A stretch of 64,000 nucleotides of DNA from Pseudoalteromonas sp. (GCF_036960685.1 NZ_JBALXK010000003.1:244172-308171), one strand, 5' to 3'; numbered from the stretch's first letter, positions 57,120 to 62,392 are shown. Numbers and translations are program-made. The notes: generated by a model not told the origin, from the letters alone.

Positions 57120-57935
57120 TTACTTTATACTAGGTTTGCTAGGCCGGTAATCACCTTGCTCTAAGCCTTTAAAGTAAGCTTGGTAACGACCATCTTGCTT
57201 AAATTGTGCTAAGTGTACATTAAATATTTCCAGCAACTCGTTACTTTGCTCTGCATTTTTGGGAAACAATAAAAAGCTGTTATTAAGCAGTATCGGTTGT
57301 GTGTGATGAGTGATCGTGTCAGCAAGTTCAGGGTGTTGATTATAAAGGGTGTGGTAGCCAATATTTATCTCCTCAGCAAATGCATCAATGCGACCTGCTG
57401 ATAAACGACGAAAGTTTTGCTCTGTACTACTTACTTGCGAGAGGTCGAATATACCGTCGGCAACAGCCTTATCGAATTTAGGGCCATAGCTATAACTCAG
57501 TCCGCCGCCTATTATCAGACCACGTAAATCATTAAAATTGTGCCATTCAAAATGGTTATCCTTTTTATAAAAAAACACGAATTTTTCACTAAGCACTGCA
57601 TCGCTGTAATAATAATTTTTAACCCTTTCTTTACTATGCATCCAAACCGCAGTTGCTGCATATTTACCGTTGTATGTGTCATGATAAGCGCGGCCCCATG
57701 GTAAAAAGGTGAAGTTAGCTTGGATCCCCGCCTCACTAAAAATATCCTTGATAAGGTGAGCTGCAACACCTTGATAGGGGAGAGATTCACTTAAAAATGG
57801 CGGCCATTCACCGGCACTTATATTGATGGTTTTTTGATTGGGGTTTGACTTCATTGGTACGGCGAATGCACTGGTTATGCTGCAGAGTAACAACCAAGTA
57901 AAGCATAATGGCACTATTACTCTAGTATTAAACAT
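57120..57935 (-). CDS. Orphan family-3 periplasmic substrate-binding protein
   Basis: GEWPPF, PWGRA, YSDAV and L..GRIDAF motifs; signal peptide. Confidence 0.85.
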   Translation of the reverse strand: MFNTRVIVPLCFTWLLLCSITSAFAVPMKSNPNQKTINISAGEWPPFLSESLPYQGVAAHLIKDIFSEAGIQANFTFLPWGRAYHDTYNGKYAATAVWMHSKERVKNYYYSDAVLSEKFVFFYKKDNHFEWHNFNDLRGLIIGGGLSYSYGPKFDKAVADGIFDLSQVSSTEQNFRRLSAGRIDAFAEEINIGYHTLYNQHPELADTITHHTQPILLNNSFLLFPKNAEQSNELLEIFNVHLAQFKQDGRYQAYFKGLEQGDYRPSKPSIK

Positions 57936-58069: not shown

Positions 58070-58106
58070 GTAAGCATAAGCTGTTGTTACAACAGCTTAT
58101 GCTTAC
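58070..58106. terminator. Perfect 18-bp inverted repeat after the lipoprotein gene
   Basis: gtaagcataagctgttgt-t-acaacagcttatgcttac; no U-tract. Confidence 0.55.
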
Positions 58107-58110
58107 GCTA

Positions 58111-58749
58111 TTACATCTTTATCCATTCACCAGAAAGTGCGTTGCCTGGCAGATAAACCTCTAAACCTAGATTGTCGTTGTTGATAAAAGCAATACCAGC
58201 TAGATTCTCAGTAGCGCAAACACTATTAAACGGTGTAATGCTAAAGTAAGTATCTTCATTGCCAATAGAGCCTGTAATATTACACCCTTGATATTGAGCT
58301 ACATAGGTACCCTGATTATCTAAATTTACATCAATAACTAGATTATCCCCAGCCACGTTGTAATCACCTGCCAGCAGGTTGACTGCTGTGTAATGACGCG
58401 GCTCGCTCTTAGTTAAATTCACCGGTTGCGAATCAATAATGCAATTGAAGCCAATGTCAGCGCTTTGGCAATTGGTTTGCGAACTAAATACAATATTTTT
58501 CTTGATAACCGAGCCTGTGTGCGCCGTAGATACTTCTCTGTCAGAAGTTAGCACTAACGTAACACCTAGTTCATTGATAGCAAGGCGAGCTAACTGTGCT
58601 GTGCCATCTTTTTCATAGGCGCTAGTATATAAACCGGCATGCTTTACAAGGTAGTTTTGTAGTTGTTGTTCACTTTTATCGTTATCTAAATTGCAGCCAG
58701 CAAGTAGTAAGCTCAATGCCGCTGTGCTCAAAAGCAGTCGTTTTTTCAT
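58111..58749 (-). CDS. Lipoprotein of unknown function
   Basis: MKKRLLLSTAALSLLLAGC lipobox; 9-bp gap after surE containing an AAGG RBS. Confidence 0.8.
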   Translation of the reverse strand: MKKRLLLSTAALSLLLAGCNLDNDKSEQQLQNYLVKHAGLYTSAYEKDGTAQLARLAINELGVTLVLTSDREVSTAHTGSVIKKNIVFSSQTNCQSADIGFNCIIDSQPVNLTKSEPRHYTAVNLLAGDYNVAGDNLVIDVNLDNQGTYVAQYQGCNITGSIGNEDTYFSITPFNSVCATENLAGIAFINNDNLGLEVYLPGNALSGEWIKM

Positions 58750-58758
58750 TAGAACACC

Positions 58759-59760
58759 TTACTTAACTAAGTTGTTTAGTTTGATTTGTGTAACGGCTGC
58801 CTTGGCTCGGCTTGCTTGCACATTCGCTTCAATAGTACTGATGGTTATATAGCCTTGCTCAAGTAATACGCCTTCACTGAGTTCACTTTCGTCATCCACT
58901 AAGCCCTGATCACGAGCGATGGAAACCCCAGCTTTGCCTTGATATTGCGCTTGCGCCATCGCGAGTGCCTGTTCATATGTTGCAGCATAACCTTTTGCTA
59001 AAATACCTTGTGCTACATAGGCCATGACTAGCTGATCTTGTGACATATCACCTGCAAATTTAACTTCAAGGCCGCCTGCATTCCAGCCTACTTGACTAAA
59101 CTTATAACCTAAGTGATTACTCATGTCCTCAGGTGTATTAACGTTTAAACCAGTAAACTTAGGTAATAAAGGTTGATTTACTTGTTTGTTAGTTACCAGT
59201 TCACTAACAATTTTTACGATAACATCAGCAACCATAGGTGCTTTTGTTTCATCAGCATCAAATGCACTCACTGCTATGGCCGGAATTCCACGAGCTATAA
59301 CGACATTTGCAGCGCCAAGCGTACCTGAATTATTGGTCATATAACCTAAGTTGTTGCCTTCATTAGGGCCTGATATCACTAAGTCTGGAAATTGCCCCCA
59401 TTTTTCTTGAGCCAGTACATCGATACCGTAAAGTGCGGCCATAACTGGCGTACCTTCAACAAAATCTGAAAAGGCAACGCTTTCATCAGTATCACCCACA
59501 CACACTTGATTTTGCTCTACTTTTGAACGGTCTACATTAACAGGCTCCATAAAATGAATAGCGCCACCTTTACCGCTTTGTCCGGTGCACGGTGCTGACA
59601 TAACAACGCTATGACCGGCTTCGGTCAATTTAGAGAATAAGGTTTGGATGTTACCGGTACTCCAGCTGTCGTCATTGGTAAGCACAATATTTAGTGCGCT
59701 TGCTGGCATAGATAGAGTGGCGGCTGCGATTGCTGCGGCTAATAAAGAGTAACTTTTCAT
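58759..59760 (-). CDS. surE: Secreted SurE-family 5'/3'-nucleotidase / acid phosphatase
   Basis: Sec signal peptide, then IVLTNDD, QSGKG, EGTP, SGPNEGNNLG, SGT and IPAIAVS motifs. Confidence 0.85.
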   Translation of the reverse strand: MKSYSLLAAAIAAATLSMPASALNIVLTNDDSWSTGNIQTLFSKLTEAGHSVVMSAPCTGQSGKGGAIHFMEPVNVDRSKVEQNQVCVGDTDESVAFSDFVEGTPVMAALYGIDVLAQEKWGQFPDLVISGPNEGNNLGYMTNNSGTLGAANVVIARGIPAIAVSAFDADETKAPMVADVIVKIVSELVTNKQVNQPLLPKFTGLNVNTPEDMSNHLGYKFSQVGWNAGGLEVKFAGDMSQDQLVMAYVAQGILAKGYAATYEQALAMAQAQYQGKAGVSIARDQGLVDDESELSEGVLLEQGYITISTIEANVQASRAKAAVTQIKLNNLVK

Positions 59761-59879
59761 AATACGTCCATTGAGTTTGGTTTGAATGCAAACACCATAG
59801 GAAGTTTTATTTACACTTTTGTGAATTAGATATTTCCGTCGTTTTAGAGATATCTTTTATTTTAACTTTATGTTTATTC

Positions 59880-60971
59880 TTATTTTATTGTTTTTCCTGC
59901 GCTGTTCAATCGGTATTTGTAACGTGCTGTTTTCGGGTCACGCTCGCTGATAAATAGATAATCATCAGCAAGGTCACCAATTGTCTTTTGTAGCTGAGCT
60001 TTAATTTTATTACGGTTTTGATCCAGCGTTTTACCTTTGAGCCCTTCTTCAGTTAAATCACGAATAGCCTTTTGGTGGCCGTTATAAGCTGTCATTAATT
60101 GGGCTAATTGTTCACCACTTTCTCTATCAGGTTTATTAGTTGGCGGGTTGGTGTAGGGAGGAAGTTTATTAATTTCTCGTTGGGCGTACCAATAATAGTA
60201 AAATAGCGGGGTTTTAGCTAAAAAAATTGTCAAGCCATGAATAACAACCTGTTGTTGTGAAAGGTTAAAAACGATTGCTTCAGGGGATCTTGCAACAGCA
60301 ATCGCAGCTGTTATTTTTAATTGGTTATTAACAGCAACAATAAACCATTTTAACTGCACTTCACTAAGCGAGTTTACTTGCTCATTGCGACACAATGCGT
60401 TTACCTCATCAGCTGTTAATTGCGTTTTTTCAATGAGTTGTTGATATAAAATCGACTCTATTTGCTGATGACTATCAGCTAAATTGACACCGAGACTGTG
60501 GTTATTTACTTTTAACACAATGTCAGTGATGAGTTTATTTAACAGCCTATGAAATTGAATAACGAATAAGCTCAGCAATAAACTTAGCAGTAGGGTATTA
60601 GCAATATTAAAATGAGGTTTTGTTGTCAGCTGCAGTGAAATACTGCCTTCACCGTATGGCCAAGTAAAGTCACTGACTGGTTTATTTGCTGTGTTGTTGA
60701 TTAATTTAATCTTCGTAACTTCAAGTTGCTTAAGTAGCTCGAAGAATAGGGGATTAGTAACGTCAACTCGACTCAACACTTCCAGTAAATGGTTGCTTAT
60801 ACGGGCTAATTCATCATCACTACTTACCGCGTTTTTTAGTGAGGCATTAGTTAGTGTTGGCAGCGCTTGCTTTAAAAAAAACTCTAATGAGTTAGCCGCA
60901 CTGTACCATGCGTGAAGGCATAAACATGTGCTTATTAGCACGCAAAGCAGACTATGTTTTAATTTTATCAT
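59880..60971 (-). CDS. Membrane-spanning hypothetical protein, putative one-component regulator
   Basis: N-terminal hydrophobic segment, second TM near residues 125-145, and a basic C-terminal region (TPLFYYYWY...KTLDQNRNKIK...YKYRL); ATGA coupling to the upstream gene. Confidence 0.65.
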   Translation of the reverse strand: MIKLKHSLLCVLISTCLCLHAWYSAANSLEFFLKQALPTLTNASLKNAVSSDDELARISNHLLEVLSRVDVTNPLFFELLKQLEVTKIKLINNTANKPVSDFTWPYGEGSISLQLTTKPHFNIANTLLLSLLLSLFVIQFHRLLNKLITDIVLKVNNHSLGVNLADSHQQIESILYQQLIEKTQLTADEVNALCRNEQVNSLSEVQLKWFIVAVNNQLKITAAIAVARSPEAIVFNLSQQQVVIHGLTIFLAKTPLFYYYWYAQREINKLPPYTNPPTNKPDRESGEQLAQLMTAYNGHQKAIRDLTEEGLKGKTLDQNRNKIKAQLQKTIGDLADDYLFISERDPKTARYKYRLNSAGKTIK

Positions 60972-61810
60972 TGAGTGAGTTCAGTTTGGGTTGTTTTATG
61001 CTGAGTGACTTTGCTAAATAATTGCTGCTGATAGTGGATGATAAGATTTTTAATTTTTGCTCGTAGCTGGGGCTCAGTATTGTTACTTATAATCCAGATA
61101 ACTTTAGAGTTTGTTTCTTTAAGCGGTCGTTTTTTATCTTTTGGCCAGTTTATCAAGGCACTATAACGGTCAACACTGGGTATCACATCAAGCTTCTTTT
61201 TTATAAAATCAGCAACTAATGCTTCCCTGCTTGGATACAAATGTATTTGTTGCGAAGTTAAAGAGATACCTGCTTGACTAAGCTGACTCATTGGCGAGAG
61301 GTAACCTGAAGCACTGTTTTTATCTGCTAATAAACCAACTTGTTTATTTGCAAAGTAATCTGCAGTAATTGCCATGTTACTTTGATGAGAAAACCAGTAA
61401 GTAGAGTAATTGGGCAAATTCAATATTACTTGATAAAAATCAGTCCAATTAGGTAACAGTCCCACTAGAGCATGCTCTCTGTATAGCATGACATCAAAAT
61501 TTTGTGCCATCATCACATCGCTGTTTAGAGATCCCCTTGGTTGCCAAGAGATGGTTACTTTACTGTATGCAGTATTTTTCAGGGTGTTATTGCATAGCTC
61601 TTGCGCAAGCGTAGATACTTGCCAATTAGTTGGGATATAGAGATTAAAATTGTTTTTTCCATTAGGGTTAACAACATCACATTGATAGGTATATAACTGG
61701 CCAAGTTCAGGGTTTTTTATTTGTGGAGATGAAATAATATAAATCAAAAAAAGAGTGAATATACCGAGCAATAAGTATTTAGTTAAAGTTAGTAAGAGTC
61801 GGTATTGCAT
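60968..61810 (-). CDS. Membrane-anchored PhnD/SsuA-like substrate-binding protein
   Basis: N-terminal TM; VGLLADKNSASGYLSP resembles the PhnD D..S.SGYL.P motif. Confidence 0.7.
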   Translation of the reverse strand: MQYRLLLTLTKYLLLGIFTLFLIYIISSPQIKNPELGQLYTYQCDVVNPNGKNNFNLYIPTNWQVSTLAQELCNNTLKNTAYSKVTISWQPRGSLNSDVMMAQNFDVMLYREHALVGLLPNWTDFYQVILNLPNYSTYWFSHQSNMAITADYFANKQVGLLADKNSASGYLSPMSQLSQAGISLTSQQIHLYPSREALVADFIKKKLDVIPSVDRYSALINWPKDKKRPLKETNSKVIWIISNNTEPQLRAKIKNLIIHYQQQLFSKVTQHKTTQTELTQ

Positions 61811-61856
61811 AGCCTGAGTAATTAGATGAAATAATTGTTAAATTTATCTTATCTAC

Positions 61857-61874
61857 ATGTCAGTTTCATGACAT
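61857..61874 (-). promoter_or_regulatory. Putative Pho box
   Basis: The minus strand reads ATGTCAT-GAAA-CTGACAT, each half 6/7 to CTGTCAT, with 11-bp period; 46 bp upstream of the PhnD-like ATG and in the sense orientation. Confidence 0.7.
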
Positions 61875-61981: not shown

Positions 61982-62392
61982 TTAGCAAAGCTGTTTTACT
62001 TCATCAAGTTGTATATGCTCTATCACAGGGTCATTTAGTAATATTTTAAACACGTTAGCTGCTTGGGATTTTTCAATATTGGCGCTGCTAAAATTAATGA
62101 TTTTGAACTGCCGCTTGATGGTTATGCCCGTAATCAAATTAAGCGGCTGTTGATGCTTGATTAGCACCGGTAATACTGTTTTTGTATCATCGTATTTTGC
62201 TAAAGCAAGTTTTGATACGTTAAATAAATCTTTAGCGAGTTTACCTGCATTAATAAATGGCACGACCGTATCAGGTATAAAGAATATATGCCCAAGTCGG
62301 TCACAACTTTGGCTTCCTGTGCAGTTCAGTGGCTTGACGATGTTATTACTGAACTCGATGACATCGCCATTGATCAAAGTAAATTGTGCCAT
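61982..62392 (-). CDS. Stand-alone S8 pro-domain paralog without a signal peptide
   Basis: FTLINGD...FFIP...DLFNVSKL...YDD...LPVLIKH...IQLD, colinear with the protease pro-region and with the 50368-50907 protein. Confidence 0.75.
   Translation of the reverse strand: MAQFTLINGDVIEFSNNIVKPLNCTGSQSCDRLGHIFFIPDTVVPFINAGKLAKDLFNVSKLALAKYDDTKTVLPVLIKHQQPLNLITGITIKRQFKIINFSSANIEKSQAANVFKILLNDPVIEHIQLDEVKQLC

What the first reader, a model, noticed from the sequence alone, without database searches (positions are those of the whole stretch)
58111..61874. Four-gene phosphate-scavenging and sensing module headed by a Pho box
Seen in sequence: four co-oriented genes on the minus strand, in order a Pho-box-led membrane-anchored PhnD-like protein, an ATGA-coupled 363-aa membrane protein, a secreted SurE and a lipoprotein. 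There is no ABC permease or ATPase. Established: PhnD folds bind phosphonate/phosphate, PhoB binds CTGTCAT repeats with 11-bp period, and SurE is a nucleotidase. Inference: without a transporter, the binding protein may be a sensor that signals through the coupled membrane protein to switch on a surface nucleotidase, making an uncharacterised extracytoplasmic phosphorus-sensing circuit.
Basis: partly seen in the sequence, partly recalled or inferred. Interest (0 to 1): 0.7.

Follow-up and report, generated by a model that had tools for sequence, protein, structure and literature searches.

The report
Pho-controlled membrane sensor-regulator phosphatase module
Two overlapping genes, a membrane-tethered phosphonate-binding-type protein and a two-pass membrane protein whose cytoplasmic tail looks like a DNA-binding domain, form an undescribed regulator pair in marine Gammaproteobacteria that sits behind a Pho box and in front of interchangeable secreted phosphatase genes, each preceded by the same palindromic DNA site.

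Summary
Four co-oriented minus-strand genes are present: g1 (PhnD/PtxB fold, signal anchor), g2 (363 aa, ATGA-overlapped), g3 (secreted SurE paralogue) and g4 (lipoprotein). A Pho box lies 46 bp upstream of g1.

Comparison with 84 loci changes the picture. The conserved unit is g1-g2, adjacent in 80 of 81 loci with room upstream. The downstream cargo varies: SurE with or without the lipoprotein, a TonB receptor with a tyrosine-phosphatase-family enzyme, a TonB receptor with PI-PLC, or alkaline phosphatase.

The g1 tree follows cargo type, not taxonomy. The Pho box upstream of g1 is conserved. So is an 18-bp palindrome, TTTAGAGATATCTCTAAA, between g2 and the cargo (60 of 72 regions against under 1% of shuffles). 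In the own genome and five others it is unique and lies beside g2.

The g2 model has two membrane helices and a C-terminal domain whose best PDB fold matches are nearly all OmpR/PhoB-type DNA-binding domains. Those matches are weak, and no sequence method confirms them.

Best reading: PhoB induces a co-component sensor and transmembrane transcription factor that activates the adjacent phosphatase promoter. This is computational only; I found no description of it. Interest is moderately high.

The parts
61857..61874 (-). Pho box ATGTCATGAAACTGACAT, the promoter element of the g1-g2 operon
   Evidence: It matches 12 of 14 consensus positions. It is one of 15 correctly placed sites of this quality in the genome, alongside phoB, a pstS-like gene and ppk. 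It is conserved upstream of g1 orthologues.
61841..61846 (-). Candidate -10 hexamer TAAATT, 10 nt downstream of the Pho box
   Evidence: Read from the sequence. The spacing resembles E. coli Pho promoters (own knowledge). Inferred, not tested.
60968..61810 (-). g1: membrane-anchored periplasmic protein with the PhnD/PtxB fold, the proposed ligand sensor
   Evidence: Invariant C44/C73, G159 and S166, and near-invariant R92, Y126, Y135, D163 and D208.
59880..60971 (-). g2: two-pass membrane protein, the proposed transmembrane transcription factor
60894..60950 (-). g2 hydrophobic segment 1 (residues 8-26), a TM helix or uncleaved signal
   Evidence: Hydropathy. Helix 2-46 in the model.
60615..60893 (-). 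g2 periplasmic alpha/beta domain (residues 27-119)
   Evidence: Model secondary structure. This part is poorly conserved between cargo classes.
60537..60614 (-). g2 TM helix 2 (residues 120-145)
   Evidence: Hydropathy score 1.84, followed by a net-positive stretch.
59901..60287 (-). g2 C-terminal conserved domain (residues 229-357): three strands, helices and a terminal hairpin, a winged-helix-like fold
   Evidence: Invariant T254-P255, W261-Y262, G310-L311 and K314 to R320. Foldseek top hits are OmpR/PhoB effector domains. A profile of this domain finds 249 clusters, and all 150 listed have the same architecture.
59842..59859 (-). g2-box 1: TAAAAGATATCTCTAAAA, the window's copy of the family palindrome TTTAGAGATATCTCTAAA
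   Evidence: It is the only intergenic copy in the own genome that lies beside a related gene.
59826..59836 (-). g2-box 2, degenerate (GAAATATCTAA), centred 20 bp downstream of box 1
   Evidence: A second copy at 20-21 bp spacing is present in 19 of 49 unique promoters with up to 2 mismatches.
59810..59827 (-). Position of the Pho-box-like element of cargo promoters; degenerate here (AATTCACAAAAGTGTAAA, 7 of 14 mismatches)
   Evidence: Family-level enrichment at a fixed offset: 33 of 49 promoters with up to 5 mismatches, against 13% of shuffles. Weak in this window.
59794..59799 (-). Candidate -10 hexamer TATGGT of the g3-g4 promoter
   Evidence: Read from the sequence. No consensus -35 is present. 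Inferred.
58759..59760 (-). g3: secreted SurE-family phosphatase or nucleotidase paralogue (cargo)
   Evidence: PF01975 at 126.7 bits; below the TIGR00087 equivalog cut-off. The NDD and SGPNEGNN motifs are kept. A canonical surE lies elsewhere in the genome.
58111..58749 (-). g4: lipoprotein with four further invariant cysteines, found only with the ~333-aa SurE cargo
   Evidence: No Pfam, NCBIfam or PDB relative.
58070..58106 (-). Perfect 17-bp hairpin with a 3-nt loop just after the g4 stop, the likely end of the unit
   Evidence: Folding energy -27 kcal/mol, z = -5.7. No clear T tract, so a terminator role is inferred.

Best explanation
g1 and g2 form a two-protein ("co-component") transmembrane signalling unit dedicated to the neighbouring phosphatase genes.

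Proposed sequence of events (all inferred unless marked shown):
1. Under phosphate starvation PhoB binds the Pho box at 61857-61874 and transcribes g1-g2. The ATGA overlap couples their translation.
2. g1 is tethered to the inner membrane and faces the periplasm. Its PhnD/PtxB-type cleft binds a phosphorus-containing ligand related to the cargo's substrate.
3. g1 contacts the small periplasmic domain of g2.
4. g2 spans the membrane twice. Its cytoplasmic C-terminal winged-helix-like domain binds the palindrome TTTAGAGATATCTCTAAA and a weaker copy two helical turns downstream, just upstream of the g3-g4 promoter, which lacks a -35 element.
5. g2 then activates that promoter. In many relatives it would act together with PhoB at an adjoining degenerate Pho box.
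6. The outputs here are a secreted SurE-family phosphatase and its partner lipoprotein.

Shown by computation: gene anatomy, folds, conservation of the pair, of both DNA motifs and of their geometry, and the match between sensor clade and cargo.
Inferred: DNA binding by g2, ligand binding by g1, the g1-g2 contact, and activation rather than repression.
For: Pair conservation:
- The g2 C-terminal domain is found in all 84 loci, and g1 lies directly upstream in 80 of the 81 with room. The genes often overlap by 4-26 nt.

Cargo:
- It is variable but consists of phosphoesterases with or without an outer-membrane receptor. Counts are TBDR + Y_phosphatase3 in 37 loci, SurE with or without g4 in 32, plus TBDR + PI-PLC-C1 and alkaline phosphatase.
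- The g1 tree follows cargo type, with 5 changes against 21-26 in shuffles.
- P. shioyasakiensis and P. haloplanktis each hold two paralogous modules with different cargo.

Operator:
- 60 of 72 g2-to-cargo intergenic regions have up to 4 of 17 mismatches, against 10 of 1440 shuffles and 8 of 375 other intergenic regions.
- The core AGAYRTCT is nearly invariant, and its register to a second copy and to the -10 is fixed.
- In the own genome the only intergenic copy beside a related gene is this one.
- The strict 12-mer occurs once in the whole genome, within about 40-130 bp of the g2 stop, in 5 of 12 other genomes tested.

g2 model (pLDDT 87.6):
- It has two long hydrophobic helices and a C-terminal three-strand, helix and hairpin domain.
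- Twelve of the 17 best PDB fold matches are OmpR/PhoB-family DNA-binding domains, including PhoB on pho-box DNA and KdpE; CadC follows at rank 30. TM-scores normalised by target are mostly 0.5-0.59.
- Invariant polar residues K314, Q318, N319, R320, K322 and K324 lie on the helix in the recognition-helix position.
- Charges flanking the membrane segments place the C-terminus in the cytoplasm.

g1:
- The fold matches include XAC2383 and AioX, both PF12974 members. They are known as sensors rather than transport proteins (own knowledge).

Pho box:
- Supported. The PhoB of this genome has a recognition helix almost identical to that of E. coli PhoB (sequence, own knowledge of E. coli PhoB).
Against: - No sequence method links the g2 C-terminus to a known DNA-binding family. 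Pfam and NCBIfam give nothing. PF00486 finds 23 other domains in this genome but not g2. The PDB profile search finds nothing relevant. hhalign against this genome's Trans_reg_C domains gives 13% probability over 23 columns.
- The individual Foldseek E-values are 0.3-2.6, which is not significant. Only the run of same-family hits at the top is telling.
- A perfect palindrome is unusual for OmpR/PhoB-type domains, which mostly bind direct repeats (own knowledge).
- In this window box 1 has 3 of 17 mismatches, and box 2 and the Pho-like element are degenerate.
- g1 scores just under the Pfam cut-off, and its ligand is unknown.
Confidence: 0.62

Rival explanations
1. Relay model. g1 senses and g2 transduces, but g2 does not bind DNA. 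It modulates another regulator, for instance PhoR/PhoB or an unlinked factor, and that regulator binds the palindrome.
For: No sequence-level homology of g2 to any DNA-binding family. The fold matches are individually non-significant.
Against: g1 and g2 are the only proteins conserved across the 84 loci, and the palindrome travels with them across orders. In the own genome and in five of the twelve others tested the site is unique, which fits a dedicated local regulator and not a shared one. The most conserved part of g2 is the cytoplasmic winged-helix-like domain.
Confidence: 0.15
2. Accessory-factor model. g1-g2 are not regulators. They are membrane helpers for export, anchoring or substrate hand-over to the phosphatase, and the four genes are simply Pho-regulon members.
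For: g1 has a solute-binding fold. All products are in the envelope. The Pho box is real.
Against: The cargo proteins are structurally unrelated: SurE, PTP-type, PI-PLC, PhoA-type and TonB receptors. A common maturation or anchoring need is therefore unlikely. About 225 residues of g2, including its best-conserved domain, are cytoplasmic. This model leaves the conserved operator unexplained.
Confidence: 0.1
3. Remnant-transporter model. g1 is an orphan binding protein that serves a phosphonate or phosphate ABC importer encoded elsewhere, and g2 is an unrelated membrane protein.
For: PF12974-type fold. The best matches are transport proteins: PtxB, PhnD and HtxB.
Against: None of the neighbours that were annotated in the 84 loci is a permease or ATPase, though not every neighbour was annotated. 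g1 is always coupled to g2, often by overlapping codons. g1 keeps a membrane anchor. The g1 clades follow cargo type.
Confidence: 0.05
4. The palindrome and Pho-like elements are non-functional, or serve something other than transcription, for example a recombination or replication site or an RNA element.
For: The function of the palindrome is untested. It lies in a transcribed or terminator-proximal region after g2.
Against: It keeps a fixed register to the -10 and the start codon across families. It is an AT-rich 18-bp palindrome without a loop, so it is a poor RNA hairpin. It also occurs upstream of a divergently transcribed TonB receptor in the P. gelatinilytica-type loci, which fits a promoter element.
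Confidence: 0.05

Closest known systems
Co-component systems VtrA/VtrC and ToxR/ToxS (Kinch et al. 2022, PMC9214523)
   Same: Two partially overlapping genes. One encodes a membrane-tethered periplasmic ligand-binding protein. The other encodes a transmembrane transcription factor with a winged-helix-type cytoplasmic domain. There is no phosphorelay.
   Different: - The sensor partner has a type-II periplasmic-binding-protein (PhnD/PtxB) fold, not a lipocalin-like barrel.
- The sensor gene comes first.
- The regulator has two hydrophobic segments and carries its DNA-binding-like domain at the C-terminus, the reverse of ToxR, VtrA and CadC.
- That domain is not recognised by PF00486.
- The system controls phosphorus scavenging, not virulence.
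Transmembrane transcription regulators as a class, e.g. CadC, TcpP, TfoS and ChiS (Demey et al. 2023, PMC10269533; PMC11856585)
   Same: A membrane-anchored one-component regulator that acts on a nearby promoter.
   Different: That census used MiST domain annotations (paper methods). Since no Pfam model detects a DNA-binding domain in g2, I infer that such a census would have missed this family. g2 also needs, by inference, a separate binding protein.
PhnD-family periplasmic sensors: XAC2383 with the diguanylate cyclase XAC2382, and AioX with AioS/AioR (PDB 5ub3 and 6esk; listed as PF12974 members in PMC10942540; their sensor roles are recalled from memory)
   Same: A PF12974-fold protein without a transporter, encoded next to a membrane signalling protein and acting as its ligand receptor.
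   Different: The partner here is neither a diguanylate cyclase nor a histidine kinase. It is a putative DNA-binding membrane protein. g1 keeps an uncleaved anchor.
PhoB/Pho-box regulon of E. coli and Vibrio
   Same: An 18-bp box made of two 7-bp repeats with an 11-bp period replaces the -35. It sits at the same distance from the start codon as the boxes of phoB, the pstS-like gene and ppk in this genome.
   Different: PhoB here appears to drive a second, substrate-specific regulator, which in turn controls the enzyme genes. That would be a feed-forward arrangement, and it is inferred.
SurE 5'/3'-nucleotidase, exopolyphosphatase and acid phosphatase family (PF01975)
   Same: The N-terminal NDD metal site and the SG-x-NxG-x-N motif are conserved.
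   Different: g3 has a signal peptide and a roughly 100-residue different C-terminal part. It scores below the equivalog cut-off. It is an extra copy beside the canonical cytoplasmic surE.

Membership tests
OmpR/PhoB-type winged helix (Trans_reg_C, PF00486) | Significant match to the family profile | tested here: not met
   No Pfam or NCBIfam hit for g2. PF00486 finds 23 domains in the own genome but not g2. hhalign gives 13% probability over 23 columns.
OmpR/PhoB-type winged helix (Trans_reg_C, PF00486) | Fold: N-terminal beta sheet, three helices, C-terminal beta hairpin (wing) | tested here: inconclusive
   The model shows strands 232-250, helices at 253-267, 283-295, 300-309 and 313-338, and a hairpin at 340-355. 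Twelve of the top 17 Foldseek hits are OmpR/PhoB-family effector domains. E-values are 0.3-2.6, probability is at most 0.72, and TM-scores normalised by target are about 0.5-0.59. The model has an extra helix.
OmpR/PhoB-type winged helix (Trans_reg_C, PF00486) | Sequence-specific DNA binding | not testable with these tools
   Indirect evidence only: a conserved, locus-specific palindrome next to g2.
Transmembrane transcription regulator / co-component system | Membrane-spanning segment(s) with the DNA-binding domain on the cytoplasmic side | tested here: met
   Hydrophobic segments at 8-26 and 120-145. The flanking charges (N-tail +2, post-TM2 +3/-1) put residues 146-363 in the cytoplasm. This is a prediction only.
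Transmembrane transcription regulator / co-component system | Partner sensor encoded by an adjacent, overlapping gene and conserved with the regulator | tested here: met
   ATGA overlap. g1 lies upstream of g2 in 80 of 81 loci.
VtrA/VtrC-ToxR/ToxS superfamily (homology) | N-terminal wHTH, a single TM helix, and a lipocalin-like partner | tested here: not met
   The domain order is reversed and there are two hydrophobic segments. The partner has a PBP type-II fold.
PhnD/PtxB phosphonate-binding proteins (PF12974) | Profile match above the gathering score | tested here: not met
   25.0 bits against a cut-off of 27. TIGR01098 gives 14.6 bits against 112. The family profile against the PDB gives E = 0.095 to 5ub3.
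PhnD/PtxB phosphonate-binding proteins (PF12974) | Two-lobe PBP fold closest to PhnD/PtxB structures | tested here: met
   pLDDT 91. The top hits are PtxB, XAC2383, PhnD, HtxB and AioX at E 5e-9 to 5e-7.
PhnD/PtxB phosphonate-binding proteins (PF12974) | Works with an ABC permease and ATPase | tested here: not met
   No such genes in the window at 55-64 kb, and none among the annotated neighbours of g1-g2 in the 84 loci.
PhnD/PtxB phosphonate-binding proteins (PF12974) | Binds a phosphorus oxyanion | not testable with these tools
   The S-x-S-G-Y loop (S166 invariant) aligns with the SGYLLP loop of 5ub3. This is suggestive only.
Pho box (PhoB site) | Two CTGTCAT-like repeats 11 bp apart in place of a -35, about 10 nt upstream of a -10 | tested here: met
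   Twelve of 14 positions match at 61857-61874, with TAAATT 10 nt downstream. The quality and position equal those of the phoB, pstS-like and ppk boxes. The box is conserved in orthologues.
Pho box (PhoB site) | PhoB binding and induction at low phosphate | not testable with these tools
   No expression data were available.
SurE (PF01975) | Profile match and catalytic motifs | tested here: met
   126.7 bits against a cut-off of 22.1. The NDD and SGPNEGNN motifs align to Aquifex SurE 2wqk.
SurE (PF01975) | Orthologue of the housekeeping cytoplasmic SurE (TIGR00087 equivalog) | tested here: not met
   121.2 bits against a cut-off of 135.1. A signal peptide is present. A canonical copy lies at C85.

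The most novel reading that the evidence does not exclude
g2 founds a previously unrecognised family of transmembrane transcription factors, about 250 clusters at 50% identity, in marine Gammaproteobacteria. Its C-terminal DNA-binding domain is so diverged from OmpR/PhoB, or independent of it, that no profile detects it. It works as an obligate pair with a PhnD-fold periplasmic receptor. Together with PhoB the pair would form an AND gate, requiring both phosphate starvation and the presence of a particular organophosphate, that switches on the matching enzyme or receptor set. The receptor clades would be tuned to different substrates such as nucleotides or polyphosphate, inositol phosphates and phospholipid head groups.
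Probability: 0.4. Interest if true: 0.8.

Novelty: new variant of a known kind. Interest (0 to 1): 0.68.

Why it matters
Dissolved organic phosphorus is a major phosphorus source in the sea. How bacteria decide which phosphatase or outer-membrane receptor to deploy is largely attributed to PhoB alone.

This locus suggests a second, substrate-specific layer. It would be a portable two-gene sensor and regulator cassette that has been recombined with at least four unrelated phosphoesterase classes, while keeping one operator sequence.

If the model is correct:
- It adds a reversed-topology family to the transmembrane transcription regulators, one that is not detected by the Pfam, NCBIfam or PDB-sequence searches run here.
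- It gives a ready-made operator and regulator pair for reporter design.
- It offers a route to the natural substrates of secreted SurE-type and PTP-type phosphatases, by finding the ligands of their cognate g1 receptors.

Tried and rejected
- **Sequence links for g2:** Pfam, NCBIfam, a PDB profile search, and hhalign against the 23 Trans_reg_C domains of this genome gave nothing significant. A weak death-domain (RIPK1) hit at E about 0.4 was treated as chance.
- **g4 lipoprotein:** no family and no PDB relative.
- **Other copies of the palindrome in the own genome.** None suggests a wider regulon.
  - The best one (C22) lies inside a 1059-aa ORF.
  - The C5 copy precedes an unrelated 667-aa gene.
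- **MetJ:** I considered MetJ as the binder, because the met box AGACGTCT resembles the core. I rejected it. The site is unique per genome and travels with g2, and the genes are not methionine-related (own knowledge).
- **Pho box by window statistics alone:** not significant. Genome-wide and orthologue comparisons were needed.
- **A second Pho box in front of g3:** real as a family tendency but degenerate in this window, so I do not claim it here.
- **Literature:** six searches found no description of the family.

Full report
**1. Observation**

The four minus-strand ORFs are present as described.
- **g1** (60968-61810, 280 aa) has a single N-terminal hydrophobic anchor. Its PF12974 match is sub-threshold, 25 bits against a cut-off of 27.
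- **g2** (59880-60971, 363 aa) starts inside the g1 stop codon (ATGA). It has no Pfam or NCBIfam match.
- **g3** (58759-59760, 333 aa) is a SurE-family protein (126.7 bits) with a signal peptide.
- **g4** (58111-58749, 212 aa) has a lipobox.
- A 17-bp perfect hairpin follows g4.
- No ABC permease or ATPase is nearby.

The Pho box ATGTCATGAAACTGACAT lies at 61857-61874, 46 nt before the g1 start, with TAAATT 10 nt downstream. Within the window such a match is not beyond chance. Genome-wide, only 36 sites are this good, and 15 sit correctly upstream of an ORF. Those include phoB, a pstS-like gene and ppk, at the same 45-54 nt distance. Among g1 orthologues, 24 of 55 upstream regions carry a box with up to 3 mismatches, against 1.2% of shuffles and 2.3% of other intergenic regions. 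I take the Pho box as real.

**2. What the unit is**

g2 homologues are annotated as hypothetical proteins without domains. A pattern scan of one genome per species found 101 relatives, of which 80 loci were fetched. All but one MAG, labelled Bacteroidia, come from Gammaproteobacteria, mostly marine: Pseudoalteromonas, Colwellia, Catenovulum, Paraglaciecola, Vibrio, Microbulbifer, Cellvibrionaceae, Spongiibacteraceae, Halieaceae and Oceanospirillaceae.

A profile of the C-terminal domain, run against 1.84 billion representatives, finds 249 clusters. All 150 listed hits have the same length range and carry the domain at the C-terminus. In the window's own genus only 7 of 140 species have it (1 of 41 close relatives). 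The flanking genes differ between genera. The unit is therefore accessory and mobile over evolutionary time.

Six-frame HMM searches show g1 directly upstream of g2 in 80 of the 81 loci that have upstream sequence. The one exception has an IS4 transposase inserted between them.

The genes downstream of g2 vary:

| Cargo | Loci |
|---|---|
| TonB-dependent receptor + Y_phosphatase3 enzyme | 37 |
| SurE, 17 of them with the g4 lipoprotein | 32 |
| TonB receptor + one or two PI-PLC-C1 enzymes | the second modules of P. haloplanktis and P. shioyasakiensis (L026, L042) and Paraglaciecola aquimarina (L005) |
| PhoA-type alkaline phosphatase | Vibrio comitans |
| M28 peptidase, with a divergent TonB receptor | P. 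gelatinilytica group |

The conserved unit is therefore g1-g2. The four-gene arrangement is one of several cargo versions.

A maximum-likelihood tree of g1 follows cargo type, with 5 state changes against 21-26 in shuffles. It does not follow taxonomy. Two Pseudoalteromonas genomes carry two modules, one in each of two clades. The C-terminal half of g2 stays 40-55% identical across all of these loci, while its N-terminal half and g1 diverge. This pattern is what one expects of a variable sensor joined to a constant output.

**3. The constant output has a constant DNA target**

When the g2-to-cargo intergenic regions are aligned, a palindrome stands out: TTTAGAGATATCTCTAAA, with core AGAYRTCT nearly invariant.
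- It is present with up to 4 of 17 mismatches in 60 of 72 regions, against 10 of 1440 shuffles and 8 of 375 other intergenic regions of the same loci.
- A weaker copy follows 20-21 bp downstream in many promoters.
- After that comes, at a fixed offset, a degenerate Pho-like element (TTTMAC-N4-CTGTCAY). It has up to 5 mismatches in 33 of 49 promoters, against 13% of shuffles. A -10-like hexamer follows.

In the window the elements are:
- box 1 at 59842-59859
- box 2 at 59826-59836
- a poor Pho-like element at 59810-59827
- TATGGT at 59794-59799

No consensus -35 is present.

In the own genome the other near-matches lie inside long ORFs or have no related gene nearby. The strict 12-mer AGAGAYRTCTCT occurs exactly once in five other genomes, each time about 40-130 bp after the g2 stop. 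In the P. gelatinilytica-type loci the boxes lie upstream of g1, facing a divergently transcribed TonB receptor. That fits a promoter element and not a terminator.

**4. Structures**

*g2.* The model has pLDDT 87.6. It shows:
- a long N-terminal helix
- a small alpha/beta domain (residues 51-121)
- a second long hydrophobic helix
- a helical region (174-228)
- a C-terminal domain of three strands, helices and a terminal hairpin

Hydropathy and flanking charges put residues 27-119 outside the membrane and 146-363 inside.

Against the PDB, 12 of the 17 best fold matches are OmpR/PhoB-family DNA-binding domains: BaeR, VicR, PhoB on pho-box DNA, AdeR, YycF, KdpE, SaeR, GlnR and OmpR. CadC is at rank 30. 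TM-scores normalised by target are about 0.5-0.59, but E-values are only 0.3-2.6. No sequence-based method confirms homology.

I therefore describe the domain as winged-helix-like. I do not file g2 in PF00486. The invariant block G310-L311-x-x-K314-T-L-D-Q-N-R320-x-K-x-K lies on the helix that occupies the recognition-helix position.

*g1.* The model has pLDDT 91. It matches PtxB, XAC2383, PhnD, HtxB and AioX at E 5e-9 to 5e-7. XAC2383 and AioX are PF12974 proteins (PMC10942540). From memory, both serve as periplasmic receptors for a diguanylate cyclase and a histidine kinase respectively.

g1 has two near-invariant cysteines (C44, C73), which fits a periplasmic location. It also has a conserved set of polar residues, including S166 in an S-x-S-G-Y loop. 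That loop aligns with the corresponding loop of XAC2383.

*g3.* It keeps the SurE metal-site motifs and is an extra copy beside the canonical surE.

**5. Mechanism**

The best-supported reading is hierarchical.
1. PhoB turns on g1-g2 at low phosphate.
2. g1 reports a periplasmic phosphorus compound to g2.
3. Membrane-bound g2 binds its palindromic sites and activates the adjacent cargo promoter. In many relatives it would act together with PhoB.

The steps shown are anatomical and comparative. Binding, signalling and the direction of regulation are inferred. My confidence is about 0.62.

The rivals are a non-DNA-binding relay, an export or anchoring helper, an orphan transport protein and a non-transcriptional palindrome. 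They are listed with their tests. Each fails to explain at least one of three findings: the locus-specific operator, the unrelated cargo folds, or the sensor-cargo co-variation.

**6. Comparison with known systems**

In function the unit resembles the co-component systems VtrA/VtrC and ToxR/ToxS (PMC9214523), and transmembrane transcription regulators in general (PMC10269533). Its sensor is of the kind seen in XAC2383 and AioX. It is not a member of the VtrA/ToxR superfamily:
- the domain order is reversed
- there are two hydrophobic segments
- the partner has a binding-protein fold
- the DNA-binding-like domain escapes PF00486

Six literature searches found no description of it. The library is incomplete, so a prior description cannot be excluded.

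**7. Verdict**

- Novelty: a new variant of a known kind, a transmembrane regulator with a separate receptor.
- Interest: 0.68.
- Main weaknesses: no experimental or expression data, and the DNA-binding assignment rests on fold rank order plus a conserved operator.

Noticed in passing
L006 + L042 (P. shioyasakiensis MJCC1); L007 + L026 (P. haloplanktis ATCC 14393): Each genome carries two paralogous g1-g2 modules. One has SurE + lipoprotein cargo. The other has a TonB receptor + PI-PLC-C1 (two copies in L026). The operator variants differ slightly: TTATAGATATCTATAA in the second type.
   Followed up: partly
L010-L014 (P. gelatinilytica, P. shioyasakiensis JCM 18891, Pseudoalteromonas spp.), about 100-230 bp upstream of g1: Here the palindromic boxes (TTTTAGAGATGTCTTTTT and CAGGGATATCTTTTAAA) lie upstream of g1 and face a divergent 829-aa TonB receptor. 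The gene downstream of g2 is an M28 peptidase with no box.
   Followed up: partly
L032:5826-7157 (Vibrio sp. 10N.286.49.B1): An IS4-family transposase is inserted between g1 and g2. This is the only locus where the pair is split.
   Followed up: partly
L004, L008, L009 (Gilvimarinus): The operator lacks one central base (TAGAGATCTCTAAAA, a 10-bp core palindrome). The half-site spacing therefore differs by 1 bp from all other loci.
   Followed up: no
L050, L052, L054, L060, L067, L070, L073, L077, L083 (Halieaceae and relatives): The SurE cargo is 390-520 aa, with about 200 extra N-terminal residues before the SurE domain and no g4. The promoters have two boxes but no recognisable Pho-like element.
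   Followed up: no
Own genome C85:41852 (+), C2:140202 (-), C2:26032 (+): Other good Pho boxes precede a 928-aa TonB-type receptor, a 595-aa EAL-like protein and ppk. They outline the Pho regulon of this strain.
   Followed up: no
window 57120-57935 (-): A second orphan periplasmic binding protein (SBP_bac_3, 271 aa, signal peptide) lies just downstream of the hairpin, with no transporter genes nearby. It is not conserved with the module elsewhere.
   Followed up: no
window 61982-62392 (-): A 136-aa ORF with no family lies between fldB and the module. It is not part of this module, and the flanks differ in other genera.
   Followed up: no
L067 (MAG labelled Bacteroidia): This is the single g2 relative outside Gammaproteobacteria. 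It sits on a 3.9-kb contig, so a binning artefact is possible.
   Followed up: no
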